Notes under the pieces: model-generated | The model's input: the letters and a program-made list of their open reading frames with translations, nothing else | The model's database searches: none | Told to the model about the DNA's origin: nothing | Source: an uncultured archaeon | GTDB taxonomy: Archaea > Iainarchaeota > Iainarchaeia > Iainarchaeales > VGJJ01 | Direction of reading: 5' to 3' | DNA: 64,000 nucleotides | NCBI GenBank assembly: GCA_964480705.1 | Contig: CAYZPC010000001.1 | Coordinates: 31,297 to 95,296, forward strand | Translations under genes and position numbers: made by a program | In this document: piece after piece, positions 1 to 34,018 of the stretch | How positions within the stretch are numbered: the stretch's first letter is position 1 | Layout: the number at the start of each line of letters is the position of its first letter

Positions 1-70
1 AAAGAAACTCTGGCCGAGGGATTGTGAAACAATTCCTCCACACCTGCCCGCCAGATGTCAATGGCGCGAG

Positions 71-154
71 TGCACGAGGGAGGATTCGAACCTCCGAAGG
101 TACTAAACCACCAGAGTCTGAATCTGGCCCCTTAGACCGCTTGGGTACCCGTGC
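71..154 (-). tRNA. tRNA-Leu (anticodon CAG), class II with long variable arm, no encoded CCA
   Basis: Reverse complement folds as GCACGGG acceptor / D-arm / anticodon stem CCAGA-TCTGG with loop TTCAGAC / long variable arm / T-arm GGAGG-TTCGAAT-CCTCC / CTCGTGC+A. Confidence 0.8.
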
Positions 155-241
155 GTGATATATTTTCGTGGAATTTACCATTTAAACAAACCCGCTTCGT
201 TTGGAGGTTTGCTTTATATTGGAGGGGTGTTTTTTCTTGGA

Positions 242-700
242 ATGGAAAACCCTCGCGATACACTTTTTTCGATGCCCGTGCAGTTTGTTCTAGTGTTGGG
301 CGGTGTCATTGCCCTTATTGCGTTTGTTTCGGCGTATGGAACGAACAATCCGACTATTTTTGGCCATTCTTCCGATGAAATTGAGTTTCCCATGATTCCC
401 AATGAGCGGGATTGTTCGAATGGTCTTGGTCAGTGTCGCGTGAGTTGTGCAGATCCTTCGACTCAGCGCATAATCACGGGAAGTTGTGTCACTTCAAACG
501 GGTGGGCGATGACGGTAATGGGTTTAGATGATGCAGACACTCCTGTTGCCATTGATGATGTCTGGGATTGTACAGATTTATTGTCGTGCAACAATAATGG
601 TTCGTGCGACCCGAATGAAACGAATGCGAATTGTCCTTCGGATTGTACAACGGCTCCCGGCGTATTAATCGCGCGCGTGGTGTGTGTGACGGAGAACTAA
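242..700 (+). CDS. Cysteine-rich secreted/membrane-anchored protein, paralog 1 (N-terminal TM helix then AYGxNxP..FGHSxDEI motif)
   Basis: Internal ATG at 242 (MENPRDTLFS..) inside ORF 155..700; hydrophobic N-terminus; 12+ Cys; N-terminal region conserved with the next two genes. Confidence 0.6.
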   Translation: MENPRDTLFSMPVQFVLVLGGVIALIAFVSAYGTNNPTIFGHSSDEIEFPMIPNERDCSNGLGQCRVSCADPSTQRIITGSCVTSNGWAMTVMGLDDADTPVAIDDVWDCTDLLSCNNNGSCDPNETNANCPSDCTTAPGVLIARVVCVTEN

Positions 701-702
701 TC

Positions 703-1074
703 ATGAATCGTTTTATTTCCTGGGAGATGGTGGGGGGATTTTTTCTCTTGCTCATTGCGTTGGGGGTAGCGTATGGTGGAAACACTCCCAGTCAATTGGG
801 TCATTCTCCGGATGAAATAAAGTGGGTCGTTGCCACGTATGTGGAAAATTGTGATAGTGGAACAGCGGATGGTTCATGCATCGCATCTTGCGCGCAGCCT
901 TTTGAGCGTGCGATTGGGGGAAGTTGTGTGGCACAATTAGGATATGCCTTTAGTGGATGGGCTGTCACGGATGCATTGGACAACCAGGTCGCGTGGGAGT
1001 GCACCGATCGCACGCACGATTTTGGTGCCGTGTTGCGTGCGCAAGTGAATTGTTTGAAAACCGGGGGACCATAA
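703..1074 (+). CDS. Cysteine-rich secreted/membrane-anchored protein, paralog 2
   Basis: ATG at 703 (MNRFISWEMVGGFFLLLIALGVAYGGNTPSQLGHSPDEI) immediately after paralog 1 stop; same N-terminal architecture. Confidence 0.6.
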   Translation: MNRFISWEMVGGFFLLLIALGVAYGGNTPSQLGHSPDEIKWVVATYVENCDSGTADGSCIASCAQPFERAIGGSCVAQLGYAFSGWAVTDALDNQVAWECTDRTHDFGAVLRAQVNCLKTGGP

Positions 1075-2169
1075 ATGAAGTCGCACCGCCCTATTCCTTT
1101 TGTGTTGGGAATTATTCTCCTAGTTGTTTCGGCTGGCGTGGTTGCCTACTTGAGTGGCGGTCCCGCCAATTTTTTTGGTCATTCTCCCGGAGAAATTGAA
1201 AATGATTTCATTACGGTTACACAAGCGTGTAATGATATGACCACGTCGGGCGGACAATACAAGTTTTGTGAAGCGTTGTGCCCGACAGGGGTTATTGATT
1301 ATTACGCGCTGAGCGGTTCGTGCAAAACCATCGTGAATGATTTTCCCACTAATGATAGTGGTTACCGCTACAATTTGTCTGGCGTAATGCCCGACTTGAA
1401 AGGATGGAGTTGTTTCAATGGGGATTTAGCAAATGATTCGAGTGAGTACATTGAAGCCTCGGTGATTTGCGCTCGCACGGGGGGATACTCTCCCATTCCC
1501 TATCAATTTTGCGGAAATTATCGCATTGAACCCTCTACCGGTCAACCCGGCAGTGTGAATGAAGTGTGCGACACCACCAATTTTGGAGATTGGTTGGATT
1601 GTACTGATTTTCTCACGGGCGGCGGAGTGTCATTGTGCAATGGTTCCCTCTCCTGCGGGGCAACGTGTGGCGGGTTTGACATTTCTCATTGTACGTATTG
1701 TAATGGTGGTTGTTCCCCTGGGCGGCAATTATGCGCGAATGGCACGTGCCAAGCCGATTGCTCGGGCAGCGGAGGAGTTGCTCCCGGAAGTAAACTCGTT
1801 GGTCCGGCTGGGAACAATTGCCAGCCCGGCGTTCCATGTGGGAGTGTGCCGGACACGTGGACGAATCCCGGCTTCTGCGGAGATGGCGGTTCAACGGGAG
1901 GCATTCCTGGTCCTGGCGAAGCATGTGATGGAGATGATAGTTTTTGCTCATCCTACGGCACGTTAGGCGTGGTCTGCCCGGATGGCACGAGTGTTTCTTC
2001 CGGATACACGTGCACCAACACTTGCGCATGTGAACCCAATCCCACTCCCTGTTGTACCGATGCCTTTGGCTCTCCGCAGTGTAGGGATAATTTAGATTGC
2101 GGCTTCGCCCAGACTGAAACGGGCATGGCGCATGGTATATGTGTGCTTGGGTGCTGCACCTATGGGTAG
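1075..2169 (+). CDS. Cysteine/glycine-rich secreted protein, paralog 3 (364 aa)
   Basis: ORF starts 1 nt after paralog 2 stop; N-terminus MKSHRPIPFVLGIILLVVSAGVVAYLSGGPANFFGHSPGEIEN matches paralogs; about 45 Cys in CxxC/CxC-rich repeats. Confidence 0.65.
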   Translation: MKSHRPIPFVLGIILLVVSAGVVAYLSGGPANFFGHSPGEIENDFITVTQACNDMTTSGGQYKFCEALCPTGVIDYYALSGSCKTIVNDFPTNDSGYRYNLSGVMPDLKGWSCFNGDLANDSSEYIEASVICARTGGYSPIPYQFCGNYRIEPSTGQPGSVNEVCDTTNFGDWLDCTDFLTGGGVSLCNGSLSCGATCGGFDISHCTYCNGGCSPGRQLCANGTCQADCSGSGGVAPGSKLVGPAGNNCQPGVPCGSVPDTWTNPGFCGDGGSTGGIPGPGEACDGDDSFCSSYGTLGVVCPDGTSVSSGYTCTNTCACEPNPTPCCTDAFGSPQCRDNLDCGFAQTETGMAHGICVLGCCTYG

Positions 2170-2174
2170 TGTAT

Positions 2175-2780
2175 TCACTTACCTATTTTCGCTATTTTGA
2201 GAATGAGTAATTCTTCAAACGCCACTTTTTGCCGCGCGACGATTCTGCATTTCAATCCTTTTTCGGCACATTTTTTTCGTGTTAAATAGATGCTATTGAG
2301 GCTCGTTTGCAGGAGGAAACACCCTCCTTGGGGCGTCAAATGCACGTTCAACCTATCCAAAAAAGCATCAATGATTTCCCTTCCCTTTTTTCCCCCATCT
2401 ACTTCCACCCATTTGATGGTTTCACTCGGAACATACGGGGGGTTGAATACAATGTAATCGAATGGAGTGGTTGGAGAAATTTTTTCAAATAAAAAGGAGC
2501 GTACATAATTTACGGTTGATTTTTTTTCCGGAAAATATTTTTCCACTATTTTTTGTGTTTGAGTCAGCGCGTCCTCATTCACATCTACACTCGTCACGTG
2601 TTTGGCGCCGCTCAACAATAGTGCGGCGGTTTGAATTCCATTTCCGCATCCCATGTCCAAGCATTTTTTTCCACGCAATTGGTTGGAGTTTTTTTCGATG
2701 GCGTGTGCGAGCAACCACGAGTCTTCCGCGGGTGCGTATCCATTGCGCGGTGCGGGGAATGACATTTTTTCCAGTGTCAT
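2175..2780 (-). CDS. Class I SAM-dependent methyltransferase, HemK/Mtq2-like (N5-glutamine MTase family, NPPY motif)
   Basis: LDMGCGNGI SAM-binding motif and FNPPYVP catalytic motif; start uncertain (2825/2780/2765). Confidence 0.75.
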   Translation of the reverse strand: MTLEKMSFPAPRNGYAPAEDSWLLAHAIEKNSNQLRGKKCLDMGCGNGIQTAALLLSGAKHVTSVDVNEDALTQTQKIVEKYFPEKKSTVNYVRSFLFEKISPTTPFDYIVFNPPYVPSETIKWVEVDGGKKGREIIDAFLDRLNVHLTPQGGCFLLQTSLNSIYLTRKKCAEKGLKCRIVARQKVAFEELLILKIAKIGK

Positions 2781-2907
2781 TTTTTTCATTTCATTTTTTG
2801 CAGTCATTATGTTATAGTCACACAAATCAAGCGTTTTAAATGAAACCCCTCACCTTTCTCGAATAGAAAAATTAGTTCAAAATTGTCTCCCAAGACGGTG
2901 AAAAAAT

Positions 2908-3207: not shown

Positions 3208-3252
3208 ATAATTTTGATGCATCGTTCCAACACGGAAAATTGTTAGAAAAAG

Positions 3253-3336
3253 TGCAGGGAGCAGGATTCGAACCTGCGAAGGCACTAAGCCAGTGCGGCC
3301 TAAACGCACTCCGGTTGACCGCTACGGTATCCCTGC
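3253..3336 (-). tRNA. tRNA-Leu (anticodon TAG), class II, no encoded CCA
   Basis: RC: GCAGGGA acceptor, anticodon stem GTGCG-CGCAC with loop TTTAGGC, long variable arm, T-arm GCAGG-TTCGAAT-CCTGC. Confidence 0.8.
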
Positions 3337-3415: not shown

Positions 3416-4399
3416 TTACCGCGTCAAATCCGAATAATGTATTTTCGTATCTCTTTCAGGAGGGTTGTCTTCGATATCCTCGCGCAAATCATCCTCTACA
3501 TCCGAGGACCATTTTTTGGGTTGCGCTTCCGCCACTCCGTCGTTTGATTTTCCGCCCGGAACGCCTTTGAATAGCGTGTCGAGTGTTCCTTCAAAGAAGG
3601 GTGTTCCTTTGGTGGGAGCATTAAATCCTTCTTTCTTGCGGCCGTTAAACACGAAGAATGCTAATGCAATTGCCGCGACGATTCCCACCCCAATAATGGG
3701 AGCATTGCTGCTCGTTGCGAGTCCTGTCGCGGGAGAGGATGGTCGGAAAAAGTCTGAGATGAATGGAATTTGCAACCCCGTTTCAACCGGTTCTTCTTTG
3801 GGTGCAATGAGTGGCGCAAGCTGAGCGTTGAGTGTAATAATTTCTGCTTTTGCATCCTCCAATGCTTTCGTGAGCGTGGCATTATTCGTGTAAATATTTT
3901 CTTTCGCAGTAATGGTTTCAGTTTCAAGCGCGCCCACGCGCGTATCCACCGTGTCTACTTTCGTGCTTAGTTCCATTTGCGATGCCGCGTCAACGGCATC
4001 AAACACATTCACGGTAAACAAACTTGTTTCCGCTGCGCTTCCTTGCGTGGATACAAAAATAGTGTGAGGTCCAGGGAAAAATCCCGTGTGGGTGATAACC
4101 GCCGTCAATCCTTCATTTGTTTTGGTGTCCGCATCAAATGTGGCACAATGAATGATGAAGGGAATCCAGTCTGGTTGCACCGCGCACGTTCCGGAGGGAT
4201 AAATGGTTGCCACGAGAATGTTGTCAAAGTGCACCGCGCTCTGAGAAAATGTATCGGTGGCGGGCATGACGACTCTAAATGTGAAGGGTGCATACGATAC
4301 TACTTTTTCAGGGGCTTGAATTTCGGCTGCAAATGCCATGTTGGCGGTAAGTAAAATTAGTAGTAAAATTCCCCACGTTTTCATATTCATTCCTCGCAC
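3416..4399 (-). CDS. Secreted surface protein with signal peptide, coiled-coil segment and C-terminal TM anchor
   Basis: N-terminus MKTWGILLLILLTANMAFAAEIQAP; C-terminal helix IIGVGIVAAIALAFFVF followed by a basic tail. Confidence 0.6.
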   Translation of the reverse strand: MRGMNMKTWGILLLILLTANMAFAAEIQAPEKVVSYAPFTFRVVMPATDTFSQSAVHFDNILVATIYPSGTCAVQPDWIPFIIHCATFDADTKTNEGLTAVITHTGFFPGPHTIFVSTQGSAAETSLFTVNVFDAVDAASQMELSTKVDTVDTRVGALETETITAKENIYTNNATLTKALEDAKAEIITLNAQLAPLIAPKEEPVETGLQIPFISDFFRPSSPATGLATSSNAPIIGVGIVAAIALAFFVFNGRKKEGFNAPTKGTPFFEGTLDTLFKGVPGGKSNDGVAEAQPKKWSSDVEDDLREDIEDNPPERDTKIHYSDLTR

Positions 4400-5120: not shown

Positions 5121-5768
5121 TCACACACATTGTAAAATTGTGGTGAGTGTACTCTTGTTCTGCACTCCTTCCAATACTTTCTCATCAATCACTAAAGATG
5201 GGGTTTTTTGGATGGAGTAATCTTTTACTAAGAGCGCGGAAATTTCCGATGTGCCTTCGATGGGGAATGCAAAAATTTGAATCGTTTGCGCGCAAGTGTC
5301 TCTAATTTCATTCAATATTTGTGCTTGAATCAAACAATCCGTGCACGGCCCATCGGGGTAAAAGTACAAAATGGGTTGTCGCATGTCCTGTGCGTCTGGG
5401 CAATTCGCTTGATATGTTTTCAGTGAGAAAAATAGTTGCGCATTCGCTGAAATAAATCGTTGTCGAACCAAATCGTATTGGTTTTGTAAACTATTCTCGC
5501 GCGCCTCATCTAACAATGCAACCAGTGGAAAGAGTTTTTCATTCTGCACCTGAATGTGTTCGCTCAGCACCGCGCAATATCTTTCCGTGTTTTGCGTGGA
5601 TTGTAAATAATTCAAATACGCATTCACTGCATTCTCCTGCGTCATCACCGTGTCAATTTGGGAAATGAGTCGTGTGTTTCGGTCTCCTTCCAGTGCGGAG
5701 GAGAGCAAGAACCACGCGGTTAGAATAATAACCGTTAACACGGCTGCGCGTGCAAATACATTTACCAT
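5121..5768 (-). CDS. Membrane-anchored thioredoxin-fold protein (CxxC, DsbA-like)
   Basis: N-terminal TM; YFYPDGPCTDC CxxC motif; C-terminal PSLVIDEKVLEG typical of the Trx fold. Confidence 0.5.
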   Translation of the reverse strand: MVNVFARAAVLTVIILTAWFLLSSALEGDRNTRLISQIDTVMTQENAVNAYLNYLQSTQNTERYCAVLSEHIQVQNEKLFPLVALLDEARENSLQNQYDLVRQRFISANAQLFFSLKTYQANCPDAQDMRQPILYFYPDGPCTDCLIQAQILNEIRDTCAQTIQIFAFPIEGTSEISALLVKDYSIQKTPSLVIDEKVLEGVQNKSTLTTILQCV

Positions 5769-7093
5769 TTTCCTCGCCCCCCAGATGACATGGCCAAAAA
5801 CAATCCCCACACTTGCGTGGAGAGGATGAATATCCAGTACACGGACAAAAATAAAATGACTCCTACCATGGAGAGATTTTTTGTTTTGACTCCCGCGGCG
5901 CGTGTTCCCATCGCTGCCATCAGGATGGTTAATCCTACTATTAACATGTACAAGAACAAGTCACTGTTCAAGTAAAGGGGAGGCAATACAATCGTCTCAA
6001 ATGCAATCGTAGAATAGGACGTGAACGAGCGATACACATCCGCGAGGCTTTCCGAAAACATTCTTGCGGCGAGTAGTAGAAAGAAAATCGCCCCCGTATC
6101 TAATATCACGCGCAGGGGGAAAAATACGCGGAAGAAAAACTTTTGCGGTGAAAACATTTCGTTGCGATACTTGAAAATAGTCTGCCACCCTCCGCGTGCC
6201 CATCGTTGGCGTTGGCGAAAAAGTTTGCGCAGCGTATCAGGCACATCGGTAAACACTTGCGCGTCCGCTTCTAACACGACGTGATATCCTGCTTTGTGCA
6301 GGGCGAAGGTGATTTCCATATCCTCCGTGATGTTGTGCACGTCATACCCGCCTATTTTTTCAAAGGCGCTGCGGCGATACACGGAAAAGGGTCCCGGCGT
6401 CACGTATAGCGAGTCGAGTGTATTCAACACGGAGTTTTTCAATCCAAATTCTAAAAAGTATTCCACTTCTTGAATGCGTGCGAGTAAGTTGTTTCGGTTG
6501 TGCACGCGCACAATCGTGGTGACTGCTCCTACGTTTTCATTGCGATAAAAATGGGGGATTAGTTTTTCGAGCGTGTCCACATTGGGAAAACTATCTCCAT
6601 CAATCGCGGCGATGAATTCTCCTTTCGTTGAGCGTGCGGCCTTGTTGAGCGAGGCGGCTTTTCCAATATTTTTTTCATTATGAATGACTTTAATTTTTCC
6701 CTTGAATTCATTCAAAATTTCTCGTGTTTGATCCGTGCTTCCATCGTTTATCACAGTAATATCCCACTTTCCGTTGTAATGCATCGCCGTCACGTGTTGT
6801 AAACACGTGCGCAGGCTCTCTCCTCTATTCCATGCGGGGATGATTACACTCACGCTCGGCCACTTGGTGAGAAGTGGCACGTGAACGGTTTGTTTTTCCA
6901 AAAAGGCTAGGAGGAAGAAGCATCCCATGTACAAAAAAAACACCGAGAAGGAGACCATGATGATAAATAAAGGTAAATTGAAAACCGCCCATCCGGCCGC
7001 GCCGATGAAGAGTAAATATGCAAGTGCCCCTGCTACTCGTGCCCGGTCGGATGGCATGTTCTTGTTGAGCGTGGGTCCTTCAGAGCTGTCCAT
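5762..7093 (-). CDS. Family 2 glycosyltransferase, integral membrane, processive type (QxxRW)
   Basis: VSVIIPAWN, DGSTD, AIDGDS and QRQRWARG motifs; N- and C-terminal TM helices. Confidence 0.85.
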   Translation of the reverse strand: MDSSEGPTLNKNMPSDRARVAGALAYLLFIGAAGWAVFNLPLFIIMVSFSVFFLYMGCFFLLAFLEKQTVHVPLLTKWPSVSVIIPAWNRGESLRTCLQHVTAMHYNGKWDITVINDGSTDQTREILNEFKGKIKVIHNEKNIGKAASLNKAARSTKGEFIAAIDGDSFPNVDTLEKLIPHFYRNENVGAVTTIVRVHNRNNLLARIQEVEYFLEFGLKNSVLNTLDSLYVTPGPFSVYRRSAFEKIGGYDVHNITEDMEITFALHKAGYHVVLEADAQVFTDVPDTLRKLFRQRQRWARGGWQTIFKYRNEMFSPQKFFFRVFFPLRVILDTGAIFFLLLAARMFSESLADVYRSFTSYSTIAFETIVLPPLYLNSDLFLYMLIVGLTILMAAMGTRAAGVKTKNLSMVGVILFLSVYWIFILSTQVWGLFLAMSSGGRGKW

Positions 7094-7212: not shown

Positions 7213-8544
7213 TCACTTTTGAAAGGCATTCGCGGTGGTTCCGCCATCCCAGCTCGTGCGGGGGCGCATTTTCACGGTGTAAATAGACTCGGCGTTGTCA
7301 TCGAGTAAGAGAGCAAACCCTCTTCCGCGAGGCATTTCTGCGTATAATTTGTCAAAGTCTCCGTGCATGTAGGATGGTCGCAGTTGAGACACGGCCATAA
7401 TATCATCTTGCGCCGTCATGCGGTGAGAGATGAATAAATCACACTGCGAAATAGCATCCGGGTGCAATTTATTCGGCCGCTGCGTCGCGAGCACTAAACT
7501 CAATCCCGGTTGGCGCCCCACACGAATCCATTCGAGTAAAACATTCAGCGCAATGTTGGGTTCATCTTTGGGCATGAACATGTGTGCTTCATCAATCATC
7601 ATCCAGACAATGGGCATTTGACTCTCGCGTCCAAGGCCTTTCATTAAGCGAATTTCTTCTTCTTTTCTAAACAACATTCGTTCTTCAAATAATTTTTTTC
7701 CCAACAATGCGACAATAATATCTTTCGTGCCTTCCATTCCAATGGCTTGGCGGTATGCGGACACATCAATAATGGTGATTTTCCCCGCTTCGGCGATGTC
7801 GCGAATTTTTGTTCCTTCTTTTTCTAACAACCCCCATTCTCTCGCCATCTCCACGCGATTTTTGAGGGCTTGTTTGGTGAGCGCATCCGCTTCCGCGTCT
7901 TGAGTAATTCCTAAAATGATCTCATCCAATCCAAAACGCATACCGAGTTTTTCTTTCATGTCATTGATGACGCGTCCTAACAAAATGGCTTCTGGGTCAT
8001 GCCACGTGTATCGAAATAATGCCATCCATTCCGTGATGTCCATTTCTCCCGCGCGAATGGTTAGAGGGCCATCCACCGGGATGTCTTTTTCTTTGTAAAA
8101 GTCCAGTTTTCCTTTGGGAACAAGCACGCGCACTGGAATGCTTTCGGGTGTGAGCCCCCATTCGGATAATTCTTTTTCATTTCCGCGCGTGGGAATTTTG
8201 AGTGTCCAGAATATTCCCACCATGTCAATCACAATCACCGAGACGCGGCGTTTCATTTCGGGTGCGAGTTTGGAAAACTCTTCAATCATCGTGGCCATGG
8301 AGTATGATTTTCCTCCGCCGCGTTTTCCACAAATCAAAATAACATGCGGTTTGGAAACATCCATCAAGACTTTTCGTCCCAACACCGGATTCTCTCCGCT
8401 CGACATAACGACTTTTCCAATGTATGCCGTTCCTTCCTCGCCGTATTTTTGTACATCTGCTGGCGTTCGCCCCACAACGGTGTTGCGTGCCGCAAAATCC
8501 ACTCCCATTTGTTTATCGGCCATTCTTCGAAGGAAAAACCCCAA
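7213..8544 (-). CDS. HerA/FtsK-superfamily P-loop ATPase (DUF87-like), orphan, no NurA partner
   Basis: Walker A ICGKRGGGKSY; Walker B MMIDEAHMF; LVLATQRP motif typical of HerA/FtsK-like ATPases. Confidence 0.7.
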   Translation of the reverse strand: MGFFLRRMADKQMGVDFAARNTVVGRTPADVQKYGEEGTAYIGKVVMSSGENPVLGRKVLMDVSKPHVILICGKRGGGKSYSMATMIEEFSKLAPEMKRRVSVIVIDMVGIFWTLKIPTRGNEKELSEWGLTPESIPVRVLVPKGKLDFYKEKDIPVDGPLTIRAGEMDITEWMALFRYTWHDPEAILLGRVINDMKEKLGMRFGLDEIILGITQDAEADALTKQALKNRVEMAREWGLLEKEGTKIRDIAEAGKITIIDVSAYRQAIGMEGTKDIIVALLGKKLFEERMLFRKEEEIRLMKGLGRESQMPIVWMMIDEAHMFMPKDEPNIALNVLLEWIRVGRQPGLSLVLATQRPNKLHPDAISQCDLFISHRMTAQDDIMAVSQLRPSYMHGDFDKLYAEMPRGRGFALLLDDNAESIYTVKMRPRTSWDGGTTANAFQK

Positions 8545-18397: not shown

Positions 18398-18469
18398 TGG
18401 ACCCGGGAGGGGTTGAACCTCCGACCTTCGCTGTATAAGAACGCTGCTCTACCACTGAGCTACGGGTCC
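18398..18469 (-). tRNA. tRNA, probable tRNA-Ile (anticodon TAT) with G27.A43 mismatch
   Basis: RC: GGACCCG-TA-GCTC-AGTGGTA-GAGC-A-GCGTT-CTTATAC-AGCGA-AGGTC-GGAGG-TTCAACC-CCTCC-CGGGTCC-A. Confidence 0.6.
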
Positions 18470-23218: not shown

Positions 23219-23333
23219 TGAATGTTCCTCCCATTCTATGTACGTAATACACGCCAAAAGCGGTTTTAAACCCTTCCCGAATGAGGCGCAAAGCAAGGTT
23301 TTTTATGCGCAAAAAAGGTCGTTTGAGTTGATT

Positions 23334-26300
23334 ATGCGCTGGTTTATTTTTGGTTTGATTTTGGTGAGTTTTTCCTCGCTTGCCTGGGCGCAAGTACTGG
23401 GTGGTGAACCCGATTTTGGTTCGGCTCCTGCCAACACGACCATTAATTCTAGTCCGGCTCCCATTGGGGGTTTTCTCTCTTTTTACTCCTCATGTCAAGA
23501 TGGCGTGTTCATGCGCAGCGTCGTGTGCGATTCTCCTTCGTGTGATGTGTCTTCTCCTTCCCTCTGTTCTTCCACTTTTTCTTCTACCGCAAGTAAATCG
23601 TGCGCCGCTCCCACAACTGTTTCAGATTGGGGGTATCATTTTCTCGTGAATTCAGCGTGCTGCAATGCGCAAAATAATTGTACGCTTCAGCAAACCACCG
23701 ATCCCTGGTTGGTGGGAGTGGAACCTTTTCCGGTGAGTACACAGATGGTGGATGTTTCCGGAATGGATCCCCGCGGGAATAAGTTGGCTCGTCGTTCGTA
23801 TTCGAGTTGGGTTTCGGTCTTCAACACATCTTCGGATGCAAAAATTTCCACCACCACTGACGCTGGTCTCACGTGGTCGAGTCCTCTTTCCATCAAATCA
23901 CTTTTTTCTCAAGCTCAATTGCCATTGGGTGTGAGTTATTCGTCTGTGCGCGTCGTTAATCCTGCGCTTGCGGTTGGAAATAATTCCGTTGAACTTGTTT
24001 TTGAAGTGGTGGACACTTCTGGAAAAAGCAACGTGTATTATTCTCACTGCGTCTCTTCTGCTTGTTCGAATGCAGCTGCGTGGTCGCTGGCTGTTCCCGT
24101 TCTCGATCCCATTGTCACGGAAACAAATCCCGGTGCGGCCGATTCAACATGGATGTATTCACTTGGTTCCCCTAAAATTGGAATCACTTCCTCTTCCATC
24201 GTGCATGTTATTTTTGATGACTCTCAAACGAATCCTTCGCTTCGCATTCAGGGAATTTTTCACCGGTATTGTTCTCTCGTTGACGGGTGTGACAAAGTAT
24301 CTGCGTGGAATGCTTCCACGAATGGGACGGATATTTTAGGGGGAGTCAATAACGGATACCCCCGCTCGCCTCACCTTTCCATTAGTTCAAAGGGCGTGTT
24401 TGCCATATGGATGGATTATTCTTCTTCCGGAAACCCGTCTTCAAATAGCATCTTTGTCTCCCTCTACGCAATTCCAACCAACACGTGGCTTTCTCCCGTT
24501 TCGGTTGGGAGCGCGAGTAGTTTTTCATTCCCCTGGATTTCGGCCGCTGGTAATCGCGCCGGAATTTCCGCGCTTTCTGGAAGCACCGTGCGCGTGTGGA
24601 ATTGTGATTCTTCCTGCATGAGTTCTCCTTCAACTCCAACGGCGTGGTCGGATGTTTCCTCCACTTTTTCTCCATTCAACACACTCACTTCCCTCTCCGA
24701 AGTTGCCATCGCAATTTCTCCTCTTGACTCGAGTGAATCCGTGCTGTTGGCTGCTGGAAACTTGGCGGGAAACAGACAATTATTTGGAATGTACTCTCGC
24801 GCGGGGGGCATCACGACAACTCTTCGCCGCATTTCCAACACTCCCACTTCATTCACTTTTACAGGATTGTCTGATGTGAGTGGAAATTTTTTGTGGAGCA
24901 GTCAACCTTTTTTGCAGTGGGCCGGCGCCACTCCAACAAGTGGTTCGGTTTATTCATCTAATGTTTTTTCATCAAACAATGCATTTCCATCCATCACTAT
25001 TACCGCGCCCACCACTCCCGTCACGTGGCAGTCAGCAAGTTCTTCCGCGTACTCTCAAACAATCACCTTCACCGCGCAGGATAATGATATTGAAGATGAA
25101 TTGTATGCGTCCATTTACTTTGGCACATCGCCCAACACCACCACTTATTTGCTTCGTGACCGCGTGGATTTGAAAACACTTCAAGGGACACAGAGCACTG
25201 ACACGTGTGCATCCGGTTCTTTTACGTCTCCCCGCACGTGCGTGTTGAACTTGCCCCTTTTCGATCCCGCCACGGGCTTGTTAGCTCCGAATGGAAATTA
25301 TTATTTGGTTGCTGTTCTCGCGGATTCAAAATCAGGGAGTGATGTTTTTTCCACTCCCAATCAAGTGACTTTTTCTCTCCCTTCCGGGACGATTTCCATT
25401 GCCGCACCCACTGCTGGCTCGTCGTGGTCGGGTCCGGGAACGAAACAGTTGGCGGTGGATGTGAATAATCCCCTCTTCTCTCAATTGTTTTCACTCACCC
25501 TTTCTGGCAATTCTCCGAGTGGTTCATTCATGTTTCCCTCGTATCCTGTTTCCTCGTACGGGAGCACTATTCCTCCGTGCGTTAAAGTGGGAAATAATTA
25601 TTCATGCGCGTATCCTATTCTGCCCTCTTCTTCTATTTCAGAAGGAGTGTACGCGTTGTCTCTCGACTCTAGCGTTGATGGCTTGCCCGGCCCCACGGCG
25701 AGCGTGAGTAATATTACGATTGATTTCATTGCCCCGCGCGTGGTCTCGGCGCAGCCGCAAGGCACGCTCACGAGTCCCCCTTCGTCTGTTTCATTTGCCC
25801 TGCAGGATTTTTCTCCCATTGCAACTGTGCCATCCATTCTCATCAATGGTCAGACAGCCACTCCTACTTGTTCATTTGGAGCACAGCCCGTCACGTGTTC
25901 CGCGCCCTTCCCTTCATCCATAACCACGGGCCCGGTCGTGGTTCAAGTAACCGCCTCGGATGCGTTTGGAAATAGTTCTCCGAGTAATTTTTCATTTACC
26001 ATCGATGGTGGAACCACTGTTCCTCCAGGGCCTGGCGGAGAAGGCGGAGGCGGTGGCGGAGGTGGCGGTGGCGGTGGGGGCGGCGGTCCAGGTAAAGTAA
26101 TTCCGCGAGTAGAAGATGTAATCACGCGCGACAGTGAGGGAAATGTTCTCGTGAATGGTACTCCAGTCGTGATTCCCAAAACAATTGTGGAAACTGTGGG
26201 AACATTTTCCAATAATGTGGTCACAGCCACGAGTAATTTGGTTGATGTGGTAGGTCCGAGTGCGCATGCCATATTTTTGGGGTTGTGCGTGATTGCCGGA

Positions 26301-26597
26301 CTGGCATCCGATGTGGTGTTTCGCCGTGTCTTTTCAAAAATTCGCGCGGACACCTATAAGCAGCGCGAGCGTTTGGTCCGAGCCCTCCTCGCGGGAATAT
26401 TTTTCATTATCCCTCTTGCCATTGGCTGGTCTTTTTCACTCGTGGCGGGATTTATTTTCACCGTAATGGAGATTGTGGGGTTTGTCGCTGCCGCATATGC
26501 GATCAAAATTCTCCAATACTATGACACGTTCGGCTACAAGGCCATTCAAGGGGTGGCGTCTGCGATTACTCCCCCGCCCCGACCTCCCTCCATGTGA
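23334..26597 (+). CDS. Giant S/T-rich surface protein with signal peptide, poly-Gly linker and C-terminal TM helices
   Basis: MRWFIFGLILVSFSSLAWA signal; over 1000 aa Ser/Thr/Cys-rich; G18 tract; three C-terminal hydrophobic helices. Confidence 0.7.
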   Translation: MRWFIFGLILVSFSSLAWAQVLGGEPDFGSAPANTTINSSPAPIGGFLSFYSSCQDGVFMRSVVCDSPSCDVSSPSLCSSTFSSTASKSCAAPTTVSDWGYHFLVNSACCNAQNNCTLQQTTDPWLVGVEPFPVSTQMVDVSGMDPRGNKLARRSYSSWVSVFNTSSDAKISTTTDAGLTWSSPLSIKSLFSQAQLPLGVSYSSVRVVNPALAVGNNSVELVFEVVDTSGKSNVYYSHCVSSACSNAAAWSLAVPVLDPIVTETNPGAADSTWMYSLGSPKIGITSSSIVHVIFDDSQTNPSLRIQGIFHRYCSLVDGCDKVSAWNASTNGTDILGGVNNGYPRSPHLSISSKGVFAIWMDYSSSGNPSSNSIFVSLYAIPTNTWLSPVSVGSASSFSFPWISAAGNRAGISALSGSTVRVWNCDSSCMSSPSTPTAWSDVSSTFSPFNTLTSLSEVAIAISPLDSSESVLLAAGNLAGNRQLFGMYSRAGGITTTLRRISNTPTSFTFTGLSDVSGNFLWSSQPFLQWAGATPTSGSVYSSNVFSSNNAFPSITITAPTTPVTWQSASSSAYSQTITFTAQDNDIEDELYASIYFGTSPNTTTYLLRDRVDLKTLQGTQSTDTCASGSFTSPRTCVLNLPLFDPATGLLAPNGNYYLVAVLADSKSGSDVFSTPNQVTFSLPSGTISIAAPTAGSSWSGPGTKQLAVDVNNPLFSQLFSLTLSGNSPSGSFMFPSYPVSSYGSTIPPCVKVGNNYSCAYPILPSSSISEGVYALSLDSSVDGLPGPTASVSNITIDFIAPRVVSAQPQGTLTSPPSSVSFALQDFSPIATVPSILINGQTATPTCSFGAQPVTCSAPFPSSITTGPVVVQVTASDAFGNSSPSNFSFTIDGGTTVPPGPGGEGGGGGGGGGGGGGGGPGKVIPRVEDVITRDSEGNVLVNGTPVVIPKTIVETVGTFSNNVVTATSNLVDVVGPSAHAIFLGLCVIAGLASDVVFRRVFSKIRADTYKQRERLVRALLAGIFFIIPLAIGWSFSLVAGFIFTVMEIVGFVAAAYAIKILQYYDTFGYKAIQGVASAITPPPRPPSM
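26031..26090 (+). repeat. (GGN)n simple repeat encoding an 18-20 residue poly-glycine tract
   Basis: ggcggagaaggcggaggcggtggcggaggtggcggtggcggtgggggcggcggt. Confidence 0.8.
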
Positions 26598-30568: not shown

Positions 30569-32062
30569 GTGATGGATTACATGAGTAAGCGTTGGGCGCA
30601 GCCTTCAACACGCTCCACTCCGGAGTTATTCATTAAGCGCAGCCTCATTCGACCGGTGCACGTCATGCTGATCCTCGCGGGAATGGCGTTGCTTCTTTCC
30701 GCGGCGCAGATGCACGCGTACACACCTTCTTCCACTGCCATTTTCTCATCTGTTTCAACGCAGGAATTATTTCTCCAGCCCGATTCGGAGTTGCCCGTGG
30801 ATATTTTCGTCAACACCCCGTATGGGAAACCCGTGAATGTTTCTTTTTCCACTGATTACCCTTCGCACGTATTGCGTGTCGATGGAGAATTGCATTCCAT
30901 TTCCACGTCTTTTCCGTTGCAACGCGAGATGCGCGTGTATGCGAATTGGAACGCTCCGCAGGGAGATTATTTAGTTACCTTGCGCGTGCACGTGCAAGAT
31001 GGTGGACAATCTTTCACTGAAACCCACCCCATTCGTGTTCACGTTGGAGAAAAGGGTTTGCTCACGTACTACACCACATCCAACACTACCCTTCCCGCGC
31101 GTGTTTCCGCGCCCATTTTTTCCACGAATGCCATTAATCTCTCCCGCACCGAGCGCACCACCGTTTCGGTTTCATTTCTCAATACGGGTTCCTCGACTGA
31201 TTATTTGGTTCGTCTCGCCGAACCCTCGTTGAATTTGCTTGTTCACGTGGTGAATGAAACCCATCGCCTCGTGGAAGACGGTTCGCGTGTCACATCTTGG
31301 TTGGATATTACGGCGCGCACGAATACTCCCTTTGGTGAAACTCCCTTGTATGTGGAAGCATACAATATGGTTTCCGGAGAAAAAACTCTTTTGGGCGTTG
31401 TCCGTGTGAATGTGTATGAGACATTCAACCTTGACGCGCGATTGCCTTTTCACTCATTTGTCGTTGAAGAGAATGATTTGATTGAAACCACTCTCTCGCT
31501 TGAAAATACGGAATACTCGGATGTGGATGTCATCATCGAGTCGAGTTCCTCACTCGCTCAGCCTGCCAATTCAACCATTCGTGTTCCGGCAAAAACTTCT
31601 ATTACCGTTCCTCTGTCCATTCACGCTTCCCCCTCACTGGGTGTGCGCGGCGACACATTGTATGTGATGAACCCCAATCTCACCGAGCAGGTTTCTTTTA
31701 CGGTTGAAACGGTTCCCCGCGGCACGTTGAAACCCATTGTTTCGGATGAGAATGCGAGAGGAAATGGTTCTCCTTTCACTCCAATTTCTGGCTTTGTTTC
31801 AGGAGTTTTTTCATCCGTGTGGGGATTGGTAATTATTGCGCTCGCCGGGTTGATTATTTTCTCTCAAAAATTTAGAGAGGGTGTCGTGGCTCGTTTGCCC
31901 AAGCCGGTTCCTCCTGCTAAAGCGCCTCCGGTTCCTAAACCGTCTTCACTTCCCGCACCATCTGCTCCTGCGCCCGTCCCATCCGCGCCTGCTCCAGGAA
32001 TTGTTTCAAATGTTCCTGTTCCCACTTCCAAAACGGATGCGACGCCGGCACAAAATAATTAA
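30569..32062 (+). CDS. Surface protein 3 (signal/anchor, C-terminal TM plus Pro-rich tail)
   Basis: VHVMLILAGMALLLSAA N-terminal helix; C-terminal VWGLVIIALAGLIIF then PKPVPPAKAPPVPKPSS. Confidence 0.6.
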   Translation: MMDYMSKRWAQPSTRSTPELFIKRSLIRPVHVMLILAGMALLLSAAQMHAYTPSSTAIFSSVSTQELFLQPDSELPVDIFVNTPYGKPVNVSFSTDYPSHVLRVDGELHSISTSFPLQREMRVYANWNAPQGDYLVTLRVHVQDGGQSFTETHPIRVHVGEKGLLTYYTTSNTTLPARVSAPIFSTNAINLSRTERTTVSVSFLNTGSSTDYLVRLAEPSLNLLVHVVNETHRLVEDGSRVTSWLDITARTNTPFGETPLYVEAYNMVSGEKTLLGVVRVNVYETFNLDARLPFHSFVVEENDLIETTLSLENTEYSDVDVIIESSSSLAQPANSTIRVPAKTSITVPLSIHASPSLGVRGDTLYVMNPNLTEQVSFTVETVPRGTLKPIVSDENARGNGSPFTPISGFVSGVFSSVWGLVIIALAGLIIFSQKFREGVVARLPKPVPPAKAPPVPKPSSLPAPSAPAPVPSAPAPGIVSNVPVPTSKTDATPAQNN

Positions 32063-32086: not shown

Positions 32087-34018
32087 TTATTTTCGATAAC
32101 TAGTCGCAATGCCCTCATCTAAGCATGAGAGGCACGACACTAAGTTGCTGCACACAGTGGTACAGTCTTTTTCGAGTTTGAAGTTTGGAATGGCCATTTG
32201 GTAAATGTGGCTTGCATTAATGTTGCTTGTTTTATCGGTGGTTAATTTTTCTGTGCTCAAAGAAAAATTGAATTTGTATTCTTTGTATCCGCGGATTTTG
32301 AGAACGGCTTGATACTCTCCTGGGTAAATAGGATTGTATTCCTGCAATTCCGTTGGTTTTCCATTCGGGTCGCGTTTACTTACGGCTGCAGCTGTTGTCA
32401 AATATTTTCCAGGGTTGGCTTGGTTGAACAACAATCCCTCATATGCTTTGTCGCGTGTCGTCGCTGGTTCATTTGCTTCAGGCTGTTGGAGTGGTTCGGC
32501 CAACCAGGATGTTCGGTCATTCACATGAATGAGTTCAAGTGTCATCATGTCATGAATGGCATCATTCGAGAGGCGATCATCCGTGTTGGGGTCGTTGTCC
32601 GGGTCGTTTAATTCAGGATTATTTTTGCGTAATACGTTGAGCGTGTCATTCGTGAGTTTAAATCGGAAAATGTCTTTGGAAGGGTCTTCGCTTGCTTTGA
32701 TGCGCACGGTTTGAATAGTGTCTTCGGTTCCCGGCACGTTGGTTTGTTTGATGCGGTACAACACCGTGATTTTTCCGCGCTGGGATGAGAGGAACGTGGC
32801 TTTGTAATCAAGCACGCTGGCTAATGGAGTAATGTCTCCGAAATCGGCTAAAATTTCTTTGCTGTGAGTGACTGTTTTCCAATAGGGAACAAATGTTCCA
32901 TTTTCCGCGGCACATAATCGCATTCCAAGAGTGAGTTTTCCCATTCCGGGTAAATTTACAATTTTATTGGACGCGTATTCTTTCGTAGTGTTGGGGTGCG
33001 CGGTGTTGTATGCATCTACTGCTCCCGTAATCGTACTAACCGGTTGTCCAATGTCGGTTCCAAACAATCCGACCGTTTGAATGGTTGTATAAATATCAAT
33101 TCCTTGTCCTATTAAATTGCGAAAAATATCCCATCCAATACTTTGTACGGTGTCAATGCGCGACGCGACACTTGCGGCAATGGTTTCATTATTGTTGAAG
33201 TGCCAAATTTGCAGCAAATAAACAGCGTTTCCTTTTGAATCTTGGAAAATAATATTTCTCGGGCTTAGTGCATATTCGGATGTCGTTGTAGTGGAGATTT
33301 TCTCATCCAAGTCTGCTCCCCCTTCGCGAAATTCAGGAGAGGAATCTCCTAATGTAATGAATTGGGGCGCGTCATTTCCAATTTCACAATATTCATTCAA
33401 CACCGGCGTTGCTTCCGCCACTTGCTGAGCAGTGGGTGTTGCGGTTGGAGCGGTGGGTGTGGTCGTTCCGGGCGTGGATGGATTTACTGCTTGTAACACG
33501 GGCAAGCTTGCTTCGAGTTTAGGCAAAAAATCCGTTGCCATGTAGGCTCCTTCCGTGTCATCGAGCTGGCAATCGCTGTTTGATAATAATCCTGAGAAGC
33601 TCATGTTGCTTGATTCTAATTCCGATTCATAATCTAATGCATACTGCGCCGAGAACGCGTCCCACACGCTGGTTTCACAATCAATCGCAGAATAGGTGTC
33701 TCCAATTTTAACGTAAACAATTCCTTCCGTGTTATCCGTTTCTTCTTCCACAAAGAGATACGTGTTGTTAATGGTTGGATCTGCTCCTTCGGTGAAAATG
33801 AATGCTTGTTGTCCGGCTAAATCGCGCATTTTTCTCAATAGGGGAACAACATTGTCTCCTGATGAGAGCGCGGGAATATTTTTTCCCCCAATGCTTTCTT
33901 GTCGAATAACCGTGTATCCTCCGCTGCCCTGTGCTTCGGAGTCGGTGGCATAAAAGAGGAATAACCCCCCTACTACGAGTGTTAGAATGATTCCGGCGGC
34001 GAGATAATGGGGTTGCAT
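32087..34018 (-). CDS. Large N-terminally anchored extracellular protein (643 aa)
   Basis: MQPHYLAAGIILTLVVGGLFLFYATDSEA; T/P-rich linker; no recognisable catalytic motif. Confidence 0.6.
   Translation of the reverse strand: MQPHYLAAGIILTLVVGGLFLFYATDSEAQGSGGYTVIRQESIGGKNIPALSSGDNVVPLLRKMRDLAGQQAFIFTEGADPTINNTYLFVEEETDNTEGIVYVKIGDTYSAIDCETSVWDAFSAQYALDYESELESSNMSFSGLLSNSDCQLDDTEGAYMATDFLPKLEASLPVLQAVNPSTPGTTTPTAPTATPTAQQVAEATPVLNEYCEIGNDAPQFITLGDSSPEFREGGADLDEKISTTTTSEYALSPRNIIFQDSKGNAVYLLQIWHFNNNETIAASVASRIDTVQSIGWDIFRNLIGQGIDIYTTIQTVGLFGTDIGQPVSTITGAVDAYNTAHPNTTKEYASNKIVNLPGMGKLTLGMRLCAAENGTFVPYWKTVTHSKEILADFGDITPLASVLDYKATFLSSQRGKITVLYRIKQTNVPGTEDTIQTVRIKASEDPSKDIFRFKLTNDTLNVLRKNNPELNDPDNDPNTDDRLSNDAIHDMMTLELIHVNDRTSWLAEPLQQPEANEPATTRDKAYEGLLFNQANPGKYLTTAAAVSKRDPNGKPTELQEYNPIYPGEYQAVLKIRGYKEYKFNFSLSTEKLTTDKTSNINASHIYQMAIPNFKLEKDCTTVCSNLVSCLSCLDEGIATSYRK

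What the first reader, a model, noticed from the sequence alone, without database searches (positions are those of the whole stretch)
242..2169. Tandem trio of cysteine-rich paralogs with conserved N-terminal anchor and GHSxDEI motif
Three back-to-back genes (242-700, 703-1074, 1075-2169; gaps of 2 and 0 nt) share a TM helix followed by A-Y-G-x-N-x-P-x-x-F-G-H-S-x-D-E-I. They then diverge into Cys-dense domains: about 14 Cys in each short paralog and about 45 in the 364-aa one. The invariant motif directly after the membrane helix looks like a processing or recognition site. It is neither a class III (pilin-type) signal nor a PGF-CTERM. A thioredoxin-fold CxxC membrane protein lies 3 kb downstream at 5121. 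This could be a new family of secreted disulfide-rich effectors, adhesins or bacteriocin-like peptides in a DPANN-type archaeon.
Basis: seen in the sequence. Interest (0 to 1): 0.62.

Follow-up and report, generated by a model that had tools for sequence, protein, structure and literature searches.

The report
Archaeal surface proteins sharing N-terminal module
Three adjacent genes of an uncultured archaeon encode small exported, disulfide-rich proteins with resistin-like heads, and their conserved N-terminal "AYG…P…GHSxxEI" stretch is an uncatalogued module found on many unrelated archaeal surface proteins in metagenomes.

Summary
The trio is real: three back-to-back genes at the stated coordinates, each with a hydrophobic N-terminal helix followed by A-Y-x(4-5)-P-x(3-4)-G-H-S-x-x-E-I. 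The Cys counts were overstated: 10, 6 and 34, not about 14, 14 and 45. The window cuts a five-gene cluster. Two more paralogs lie upstream of tRNA-Leu in a near-identical strain and in relatives, and the five paralogs group by position, not by genome.

The N-terminal stretch is not private to these genes. It always sits at a protein start, after a helix, and precedes very diverse C-terminal domains (tail-fibre-like, tail-collar-like, RCC1, Cys-rich heads). No Pfam, NCBIfam or PHROGs model covers it. V-x-A before the Y fits signal peptidase I.

The shared six-Cys domain models as a beta-sandwich closest to the PCSK9 C-terminal domain and resistin, at fold level only.

Best reading: Sec-exported, disulfide-stabilised binding heads on the cell surface, carrying a lineage-wide N-terminal export or tethering module. 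That module's own function is unknown. No dedicated peptidase or ATPase co-occurs. Moderately interesting; new variant of a known kind.

The parts
213..220 (+). TATA-like box TTTATATT about 25 nt upstream of ATG 242, with a GGAGGGG stretch at 221-227. Candidate promoter for the three-gene unit.
   Evidence: Read from the sequence. Function is inferred and was not tested.
242..700 (+). Paralogue 1: 152 aa, 10 Cys. Leader plus module plus six-Cys head carrying a 4-Cys insert.
   Evidence: ORF and translation. Orthologues P0003, P0004 and P0006.
275..331 (+). Hydrophobic helix of paralogue 1 (aa 12-30).
   Evidence: Sequence.
332..382 (+). Module core of paralogue 1: AYGTNNPTIFGHSSDEI (aa 31-47). 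Preceded by V-S, so V-x-A comes before Y.
413..685 (+). Six-Cys head of paralogue 1 (aa 58-148). Conserved Cys at 58, 65, 69, 82, 110, 148; insert Cys at 116, 122, 131, 135.
703..1074 (+). Paralogue 2: 123 aa, 6 Cys. This is the minimal form: leader plus module plus head.
   Evidence: AF2 model.
769..819 (+). Module core of paralogue 2: AYGGNTPSQLGHSPDEI (aa 23-39).
   Evidence: Low-confidence coil in the model.
829..1059 (+). Head of paralogue 2 (aa 43-119): six-stranded beta-sandwich.
1075..2169 (+). Paralogue 3: 364 aa, 34 Cys. Leader plus module plus head plus long tail.
1144..1197 (+). Module core of paralogue 3: AYLSGGPANFFGHSPGEI (aa 24-41, one residue longer). Its leader MKSHR / PIPFVLGIILLVV / SAGVVA has a textbook n-h-c layout.
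1198..1485 (+). Head of paralogue 3 (aa 42-137), homologous to those of paralogues 1 and 2. It ends ...ASVICARTGGYSP.
1486..2166 (+). Cys/Gly/Pro-rich tail of paralogue 3 (aa 138-364, 28 Cys). It carries two CG[ND][GY]...E.CD motifs. Conserved in long-form relatives; fold unknown.
   Evidence: Alignment of nine long forms. The AF2 model is unusable, pLDDT 46. No Pfam or NCBIfam hit.

Best explanation
The three genes form a tightly packed, probably co-transcribed unit. They belong to a five-gene paralogue cluster with a fixed gene order in an uncultured, probably DPANN-type, archaeon. Each product is exported by the Sec route through an N-terminal signal peptide. Signal peptidase I most likely cuts this peptide after V-x-A, which would make Y-G-x3-P-x3-G-H-S-x-x-E-I the mature N-terminus. 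Behind this 17-residue stretch sits an ~80-residue beta-sandwich head. Three disulfides hold the head together, and its fold resembles resistin and the PCSK9 C-terminal modules. The long paralogue adds a Cys/Gly/Pro-rich extension.

The leader plus 17-residue stretch is a portable module. Many otherwise unrelated archaeal surface proteins carry it, including tail-fibre-like, tail-collar-like, RCC1 and other resistin-like heads. I infer that the module delivers these proteins to the cell surface and tethers or assembles them there through a common partner. I also infer that the heads are ligand- or host-binding units, possibly working as a hetero-oligomer of the paralogues.

Shown: the gene anatomy, the homology of the three heads, conservation of the cluster, the wide distribution and sharp boundary of the module, its absence from the curated libraries, and the fold resemblance.

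Inferred: Sec export, the cleavage site, the disulfides, surface tethering, the binding function and oligomerisation.
For: Anatomy and non-randomness of the trio.

Cluster conservation:
- The same short-short-long order, followed by the same minus-strand methyltransferase, is found in L002, L005 and L007.
- A further short-plus-long pair lies upstream of tRNA-Leu in L005, L006 and L001. L001 is 98.9% identical to the window.
- The paralogues fall into five groups by position, not by genome.

Module:
- All 126 translated matches lie 26-48 residues after a Met and directly after a hydrophobic stretch.
- Information content drops from above 2.5 bits to about 0.5 bits right after E-[ILV]-[ED].
- The C-terminal parts form 55 BLAST clusters among 107 proteins. 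Pfam hits among them include Peptidase_S74, Gp10_C/Collar, RCC1, PCSK9_C3 and Laminin_G_3.
- No Pfam, NCBIfam or PHROGs model is shared by the 63 representatives scanned.

Continuity between the trio and the generic module: the trio-family profile finds 87 cluster representatives. Some of these combine the generic leader MxINIEKRxxY with the same six-Cys head (P0032, P0048, P0049, P0056, P0061).

Signal-peptidase fit:
- V is present at 73% at -3, a position the search pattern did not force. Gly is enriched at -4 to -7.
- In the set found by profile, 84 of 90 have V, G, A, I or S at -3 before A or G.
- The alternative site V-x-G before H fails in about 30% of that set. It also fails in window genes 2 and 3.

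Head fold:
- AF2 pLDDT is 80-89 over the head.
- Foldseek gives PCSK9 probability up to 0.96 and rmsd 2.5-3.4 A over about 80 columns.
- Weak sequence echoes occur in sister proteins: PCSK9_C3 at 25 bits and Resistin at E 0.068.

Archaeal cellular context: the window holds a thermosome, XPD, Lhr, IleRS and enolase. Neighbours of module genes include TBP, GatD/GatE, S13/S15, deoxyhypusine synthase and SRP54. The pattern gave no hit in viral contigs.
Against: - No signal-peptide predictor was available, so cleavage rests on the -3/-1 rule alone.
- In generic members the hydrophobic stretch is about 19 residues long. That length also suits an uncleaved membrane anchor.
- Paralogue 1 and its orthologues have a neutral-to-acidic n-region (MENPRD...), which is unusual for Sec signal peptides.
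- The motif region has low confidence (pLDDT about 50) in the model, so nothing structural is known about it.
- The fold match is moderate. It rests on a 7-sequence alignment. Foldseek found no hit at E <= 0.001. hhalign against human resistin was negative, probability 0.4%. A profile search of PDB sequences found nothing significant.
- No partner, receptor or processing enzyme was found.
- Oligomerisation of the paralogues is untested speculation, based on resistin trimers and the three-module PCSK9 domain (known from the literature).
- DPANN membership of the window itself is not shown.
Confidence: 0.55

Rival explanations
1. Uncleaved type II signal anchor. The N-terminal helix stays in the membrane (N-in, C-out). 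The AYG...GHSxxEI stretch is then a juxtamembrane stalk or collar, for example an oligomerisation or metal-binding neck under trimeric heads.
Against: A conserved small residue at -1 and V/A/G at -3, with Gly just upstream, is not needed for a plain anchor, yet it is near-universal. Paralogue 3 has a short h-region of 13 residues with a classic SAGVVA c-region. Partner domains such as the RCC1 propeller are not trimeric.
Confidence: 0.3
2. A new dedicated N-terminal sorting or processing signal. The whole conserved stretch, including the conserved cytoplasmic K-I-x-[IV]-N-[IL]-x-[KN]-[KR] part, would be recognised by a lineage-specific peptidase or transferase. That enzyme would cut or modify within AYG...GHS and attach the protein to the envelope. 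This would be an N-terminal counterpart of LPXTG/sortase or PGF-CTERM/archaeosortase.
For: Conservation spans both sides of any plausible cut site and includes the cytoplasmic n-region. That is atypical for ordinary Sec signal peptides. The module boundary is sharp, and the module is attached to 55 unrelated C-terminal clusters. It is absent from the curated libraries. P at -5 and G at -1 before H give a second possible cut site in about 70% of members.
Against: No conserved neighbouring peptidase, transferase or ATPase was found in 120 loci. The window trio lacks the conserved n-region. The G|H site fails the -3 rule in window genes 2 and 3. No experimental hint exists.
Confidence: 0.12
3. 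Secreted bacteriocin-like or toxin peptides: small, soluble, disulfide-rich effectors released to act on competitors or hosts.
For: The mature size is small (about 80-120 aa) with many Cys. There is one marginal beta-defensin hit at E 0.092.
Against: No immunity, transporter or maturation genes lie nearby. The same leader carries fibre-like and propeller domains of up to 540 aa. The modelled fold resembles binding heads and lectins, not known bacteriocins. Five stable orthogroups do not fit the rapid turnover expected of toxins.
Confidence: 0.06
4. Pilin-like filament subunits. The N-terminal helix would be retained as a filament core after removal of a short leader by a prepilin-type peptidase.
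For: The general shape matches pilins: a conserved N-terminal hydrophobic helix with a variable C-terminal globular part. Several genes occur in tandem.
Against: No [KR]-[GAS] cut site precedes the hydrophobic stretch; the residue after K/R is Y, H, L or W. No N_methyl or archaeal pilin Pfam hit was found. No pilus ATPase, TadC or prepilin peptidase lies next to the genes.
Confidence: 0.04

Closest known systems
Resistin/RELM hormones and the three resistin-like modules of the PCSK9 C-terminal domain (Pfam Resistin PF06954, PCSK9_C1-3)
   Different: No significant sequence similarity. The window proteins have six Cys in a different pattern; resistin has 10-11. The host is archaeal, and the N-terminal helix is hydrophobic (membrane or signal), not a coiled coil. 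Oligomeric state is unknown.
Signal peptides with conserved sequence motifs: YSIRK-G/S (PF04650) and KxYKxGKxW (TIGR03715) of Gram-positive surface proteins
   Same: A recognisable, conserved sequence inside or next to an otherwise ordinary Sec signal peptide. It is shared by many unrelated surface proteins of one lineage.
   Different: Sequence, position and lineage all differ. Here the strongest conservation lies after the hydrophobic core and extends about 17 residues past the likely cut site. No accessory secretion system is linked. These families are recalled from my own knowledge. Neither appeared among the Pfam or NCBIfam hits reported.
Class III (prepilin/archaellin) signal peptides
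   Same: A conserved N-terminal hydrophobic helix with variable C-terminal domains, and several paralogues in tandem.
   Different: There is no [KR]-[GAS] cut site before the helix. The conserved motif lies after the helix, not before it. No pilus machinery is nearby.
PGF-CTERM/archaeosortase and LPXTG/sortase sorting signals
   Same: A short conserved tag next to a hydrophobic helix, carried by many unrelated surface proteins of one lineage. This is a functional analogy only.
   Different: Those signals are C-terminal and have known dedicated enzymes. This module is N-terminal, and no enzyme is known or found. The C-termini of the window proteins (…VVCVTEN, …CLKTGGP, …GCCTYG) have no hydrophobic tail.
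Phage tail-fibre and tail-collar proteins (Peptidase_S74 chaperone, Collar PF07484, Gp10_C PF21939)
   Same: Some proteins carrying the same leader have these domains. Tail-fibre tips are also weak structural neighbours of the head.
   Different: The window proteins have none of these domains. The genes sit among housekeeping archaeal genes, and the pattern is absent from viral contigs.
Acyltransferase nucleophile elbow (FabD/PKS AT, G-H-S-x-G-E-[IY] after a hydrophobic helix)
   Same: The local string helix-G-x3-P-x3-G-H-S-x-G-E-I looks similar. It explains recurrent weak hits to Acyl_transf_1 and PKS models.
   Different: All hits are non-significant (E 0.01-0.9). Only about 35 residues match, and the 300-residue alpha/beta fold is absent. 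I treat this as coincidence.

Membership tests
Sec-type signal peptide cleaved by signal peptidase I | Tripartite n-h-c layout, with small residues at -1 and -3 and a helix breaker upstream of the cut | tested here: met
   V/G/A/T-x-A before Y in 14 of 14 cluster paralogues. V at 73% at -3, and Gly enriched at -4 to -7, in 115 generic proteins. 84 of 90 canonical at -3 in the set found by profile. Caveats: paralogue 1 has a neutral/acidic n-region, and generic members have a 19-residue hydrophobic stretch.
Sec-type signal peptide cleaved by signal peptidase I | Actual cleavage and export | not testable with these tools
   Needs SignalP/DeepTMHMM and N-terminal proteomics.
Class III (prepilin/archaellin) signal peptide | Short charged leader ending in [KR]-[GAS] immediately before the hydrophobic helix | tested here: not met
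   Window leaders are MENPRDTLFSMP-, MNR-FISWE- and MKSHRPIP-. In generic members the K/R pair is followed by Y, H, L or W.
Class III (prepilin/archaellin) signal peptide | Association with a prepilin peptidase and pilus ATPase/TadC genes | tested here: not met
   None among window neighbours, nor among recurrent neighbours in 120 loci.
PGF-CTERM / archaeosortase substrate | C-terminal PGF motif plus hydrophobic helix plus basic tail | tested here: not met
   The C-termini are ...ARVVCVTEN...NCLKTGGP and ...VLGCCTYG.
Lipoprotein (lipobox) | [LVI][ASTVI][GAS]C at the end of the signal peptide | tested here: not met
   The first Cys is at residue 58, 50 and 52 respectively, well after the leader.
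Tat signal peptide | Twin-arginine motif in the n-region | tested here: not met
   No RR in any of the three leaders.
Resistin / PCSK9 C-terminal domain | Six-stranded disulfide-rich beta-sandwich fold | tested here: inconclusive
Resistin / PCSK9 C-terminal domain | Match to the Pfam models above the gathering score; family Cys pattern ending in CC | tested here: not met
   No Pfam hit for the window proteins at E <= 1. Sister proteins reach only 25 bits (cut-off 26.7) and E 0.068. hhalign against resistin gives probability 0.4%. The window heads have 6 Cys and a single terminal Cys.
Myxococcus-type cysteine-rich repeat (TIGR02232 / DUF4215), considered for the tail of paralogue 3 | Match to the repeat HMM (CGNG..E.GE.CDDGN...C) | tested here: not met
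   No Pfam or NCBIfam hit at E <= 1. Only two CG[ND][GY]...E.CD strings are visible in the sequence.
Any curated family covering the N-terminal module | A Pfam, NCBIfam or PHROGs model matching the first ~50 residues | tested here: not met
   No family is shared by the 63 representatives scanned, and none hits the window proteins.
Acyltransferase (FabD/PKS AT) | Complete ~300-residue alpha/beta fold around the GHSxG nucleophile | tested here: not met
   Only about 35 residues align, at E 0.01-0.9 and below all cut-offs.

The most novel reading that the evidence does not exclude
The ~50-residue leader K-I-x-[IV]-N-[IL]-x-[KN]-[KR] / helix / V-x-A-Y-G-[TG]-x-x-P-x-x-[FMV]-G-H-[ST]-x-G-E-[ILV] could be a previously unrecognised, lineage-wide N-terminal sorting signal of Pacearchaeota-like (DPANN) archaea. 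A dedicated, still unknown machinery would read it and process or attach a large, fast-diversifying repertoire of host-contact proteins. It would be an N-terminal counterpart of LPXTG/sortase or PGF-CTERM/archaeosortase. The window's five-gene cluster would then be a specialised hetero-oligomeric resistin-like adhesin using that pathway.
Probability: 0.2. Interest if true: 0.8.

Novelty: new variant of a known kind. Interest (0 to 1): 0.55.

Why it matters
DPANN archaea live attached to other cells, yet their surface and host-contact proteins are mostly unannotated 'dark matter'. A short, sharply bounded N-terminal module that marks many otherwise unrelated surface proteins would help in three ways. 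First, it gives a simple sequence handle for listing the surface and adhesin repertoire of these organisms in metagenomes. Second, it points to a shared export, tethering or assembly step that could be tested directly. Third, it yields concrete proteomic targets: predicted neo-N-terminal peptides. The resistin/PCSK9-like head, if confirmed, would extend a fold known from animal hormones to archaea. If the module is only a conserved signal-peptide end, the finding reduces to a useful annotation rule.

Tried and rejected
- A profile of the N-terminal 41-51 residues alone, run against 5.8 billion proteins, gave no hit at E <= 10, not even to itself. It is too short and too hydrophobic.
I replaced them with a hand-made degenerate DNA pattern.
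- The same pattern in viral contigs gave 0 hits, so I dropped a prophage or viral origin.
- The AFDB50 fold library was not available.
- The full-length model of paralogue 3 was too poor to use, pLDDT 46.
- Four exact look-ups failed: paralogue 3, the methyltransferase, and the 115-aa form of paralogue 2 queried both as a window reference and as P0014. The 135-kb source contig could therefore not be retrieved. The upstream paralogues are documented from L001 (98.9% identical), L005 and L006 instead.
The profile search of PDB sequences was also negative.
- I judged the acyltransferase GHSxGE resemblance to be coincidental.
- The neighbour-enrichment search for a peptidase or ATPase found only housekeeping genes and large TNAH-repeat surface proteins.
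- Five literature look-ups found no description of the module. The library is incomplete, so prior description cannot be excluded.
- I rejected the class III, PGF-CTERM, lipobox and Tat readings on sequence grounds.
Full report
**1. Checking the observation**

The window holds three same-strand ORFs at 242-700 (152 aa), 703-1074 (123 aa) and 1075-2169 (364 aa). The gaps between them are 2 and 0 nt. All three begin with a hydrophobic helix followed by:
- AYGTNNPTIFGHSSDEI
- AYGGNTPSQLGHSPDEI
- AYLSGGPANFFGHSPGEI

A DNA pattern for G-H-S-x-x-E-I occurs three times in the 64 kb, only in these genes. The shuffle expectation is 0.18, and none of 100 shuffles reached 3. A six-frame peptide scan found one further, unrelated match that is not in an ORF of this kind.

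ATG 242 is the real start of gene 1. Orthologues begin at MENP. The longer GTG-155 ORF used by some gene callers would abut the minus-strand tRNA-Leu(CAG) at 70-154.

The true numbers are 10, 6 and 34. The motif is also less invariant than stated (L for F; AYL for AYG; one extra residue; G for D).

**2. What the three proteins share**

Realigning the first 140 residues of the long protein with the two short ones shows that all three share more than the leader and motif. They also share an ~80-residue domain with six conserved Cys: C..C...C...G-S-C...W-x-C-x-D...A-x-V-x-C-x-x-t-G-G. Paralogue 1 has a 4-Cys insert. Paralogue 3 continues into a 227-residue Cys/Gly/Pro-rich tail with two CG[ND][GY]...E.CD strings. 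None of the three hits Pfam or NCBIfam at E <= 1, apart from a meaningless 13.6-bit defensin match.

**3. The cluster is larger and conserved**

A word-indexed search of 5.8 billion proteins found only six close relatives. Their contigs show the same order: short, short, long, then a minus-strand MTS/NPPY methyltransferase. This holds in L002 and L005 and in L007, an 'uncultured archaeon' MAG.

L005 and L006 carry a further short-plus-long pair just upstream of the tRNA-Leu. L006 is another archaeal MAG. L001 is an assembly 98.9% identical to the window over 1,180 bases. Its 688 bases beyond the window start contain the 3' part of such a long paralogue. So the window cuts a five-gene cluster.

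A distance tree groups the paralogues into five sets by position, not by genome. The duplications therefore predate the divergence of these organisms, and each copy has been kept.

An exhaustive HMMER scan of 1.84 billion cluster representatives with the family profile found:
- 87 hits at E <= 0.001
- 29 hits at E <= 1e-10
- about 45 of these with leader plus head, in short forms (~125 aa) and long forms (330-440 aa)

**4. The N-terminal stretch is a widespread module**

One genome-collection hit, L008 from a Candidatus Pacearchaeota MAG, has two tandem genes with ...VYAYGTSDPAVFGHSSGEIEG fused to a different domain. That domain matches Gp10_C at 2.8e-10 and Collar weakly.

I then scanned the metagenome collection with a degenerate DNA pattern for A-Y-G-x3-P-x2-[hydrophobic]-G-H-[S/T]-x2-E-[hydrophobic]. 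All 126 translated matches lie 26-48 residues after a Met and directly after a hydrophobic stretch.

A position profile of 115 non-identical proteins gives this layout:

| Segment | Consensus |
|---|---|
| Start | M |
| n-region | K-I-x-[IV]-N-[IL]-x-[KN]-[KR] |
| Hydrophobic stretch | ~19 residues, Gly-rich at its end |
| Before the likely cut | V-x-A |
| Conserved stretch | Y-G-[TG]-[SNT]-x-P-x-[VTI]-[FMV]-G-H-[ST]-x-G-E-[ILV]-[ED] |

Right after this stretch, information content falls from above 2.5 bits to about 0.5 bits per position.

What follows is extremely diverse. There are 55 BLAST clusters among 107 full-length proteins. They include:
- tail-fibre-like proteins with the Peptidase_S74 chaperone domain (the largest cluster)
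- RCC1 propellers
- Laminin_G_3
- many small Cys-rich heads with the C-P-x-G-[YF]-x-x-x-G-G-C...G-W-x-C...C-[C] pattern

No Pfam, NCBIfam or PHROGs model is shared by the 63 representatives scanned. Some members combine the generic leader with the window-type head (P0032, P0048, P0049, P0056, P0061). This shows that the trio is a divergent branch of the same module family.

The genes are cellular and archaeal. Their neighbours include TBP, GatD/GatE, S13/S15, deoxyhypusine synthase, ATP-dependent ligase and SRP54. The pattern is absent from viral contigs. The window itself encodes a thermosome, XPD, Lhr, IleRS and enolase.

**5. How the module may work**

The residue before Y is A or G, and the residue two before that is V, G, A, I or S. 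This holds in 14 of 14 cluster paralogues and in 84 of 90 proteins found by profile. V at that position (73%) was not imposed by my search pattern. Gly accumulates 4-7 residues upstream. This is the classical -3/-1 signature of signal peptidase I.

Paralogue 3 has a textbook n-h-c leader: MKSHR / PIPFVLGIILLVV / SAGVVA. A second formally possible site, P-x-V-x-G before H, fails in about 30% of members and in window genes 2 and 3. I therefore favour Sec export with a cut after V-x-A, which would leave the conserved 17-mer as the mature N-terminus.

Three points argue the other way:
- The generic hydrophobic stretch is long enough for a permanent anchor.
- Paralogue 1 has a non-basic n-region.
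- I had no signal-peptide predictor.

The conserved cytoplasmic n-region of generic members and the sharp module boundary also leave room for a dedicated recognition system. However, no peptidase, transferase or ATPase recurs next to these genes. The only recurrent non-housekeeping neighbours are large TNAH-repeat surface proteins. In the AF2 model the motif is a low-confidence linker between the helix and the first strand, so its own role remains unknown. It could be a tether, a collar, a metal site or a recognition tag.

**6. The head**

AF2 on paralogue 2, with a 7-sequence alignment, gave:
- a helix at residues 7-25
- a coil at 25-41
- a six-stranded beta-sandwich at 43-119, with pLDDT about 80-89

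Sequence-level support is marginal. One sister protein scores 25 bits against PCSK9_C3 (cut-off 26.7), and another scores E 0.068 against Resistin. hhalign of the family against resistin is negative, and so is the PDB profile search. I therefore call the head resistin/PCSK9-like in fold only.

From the literature, resistin forms trimers and the PCSK9 domain is a pseudo-trimer of three such modules. That makes a hetero-oligomer of the co-expressed paralogues an attractive idea, but it is untested.

The tail of paralogue 3 could not be modelled (pLDDT 46).

**7. Surroundings**

The downstream methyltransferase (2175-2825, minus strand) is syntenic in relatives, but it is a housekeeping-type enzyme.

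The CxxC protein at 5121-5810 is only a sub-threshold thioredoxin match, and it is not syntenic in L007. A functional link to the trio is possible, since exported disulfides need an oxidant, but it is unsupported.

**8. Verdict**

But it misses two main points. The motif is a widespread, portable module of archaeal surface proteins, and the Cys-rich domain is a shared, resistin-like head.

- Novelty: new variant of a known kind.
- Interest: 0.55.
- The most novel reading still open is a new N-terminal sorting signal with its own machinery. I put this at about 20%, and it would be of high interest if true.

Noticed in passing
window 18398-18469 (-): tRNA-Ile with anticodon UAU (tat). Most archaea decode AUA with a modified CAU tRNA, so a UAU tRNA-Ile may be a lineage marker.
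   Followed up: no
window 3252-3336 (-): ARAGORN calls a tRNA-Leu(UAG) here, but the Rfam gathering-threshold scan reported only three of the four tRNAs and missed this one.
   Followed up: no
window 56865-59432 (-); also 23238-26597 (+), 30569-32062 (+), 32087-34018 (-): An 855-aa protein carries MopE-like Cys-rich metal-binding motifs (7.4e-17). Three large ORFs (1119, 497 and 643 aa) have no Pfam hit and are probably further surface proteins.
   Followed up: partly
L114 477-3782, L057 1414-4719, L014 7255-9522, L073 6170-8233 and about 10 other loci: Large secreted or membrane proteins with repeated '(L/I)S(A/S)xTNAH(A/G/V)E' units lie directly next to module genes in 10-15 metagenome loci. 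This appears to be a second uncharacterised surface-protein type of the same organisms.
   Followed up: partly
window 332-382, 769-819, 1144-1197; L008 5378-5908 and 5938-6456; L026 8118-8603: The helix-G-x3-P-x3-GHSxGE[IY] string mimics the nucleophile elbow of FabD/PKS acyltransferases. It draws recurrent sub-threshold hits (Acyl_transf_1, PKS models, EryA chains at E 0.44). I judged this coincidental, but it could mislead automatic annotation.
   Followed up: partly
L002 3146-3967 (+): In a related contig, the slot downstream of the methyltransferase holds a 273-aa secreted protein with CGNG..E.GE.CD-type Cys repeats. The window has an unrelated 327-aa Sec/TM protein there (3416-4399, minus strand). 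The locus seems to collect variable surface genes.
   Followed up: no
L008 9890-11254 (-); L091 3840-5207 (-); several other loci: Module genes recur near SRP54, GatD/GatE and ProRS genes in Pacearchaeota-like contigs (6-14 loci each). This is probably inherited synteny rather than a functional link.
   Followed up: partly
window 1-2000: This stretch has the highest GC (0.50 versus about 0.46) and a strong GC skew (+0.158) compared with the rest of the window. The Gly/Cys-rich coding of the cluster is the likely cause.
   Followed up: no
window 7213-8544 (-): A HerA/DUF87-type ATPase (5.8e-10) lies next to a GT2 glycosyltransferase (5762-7093, minus strand). Neither is syntenic with the cluster in relatives.
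   Followed up: no
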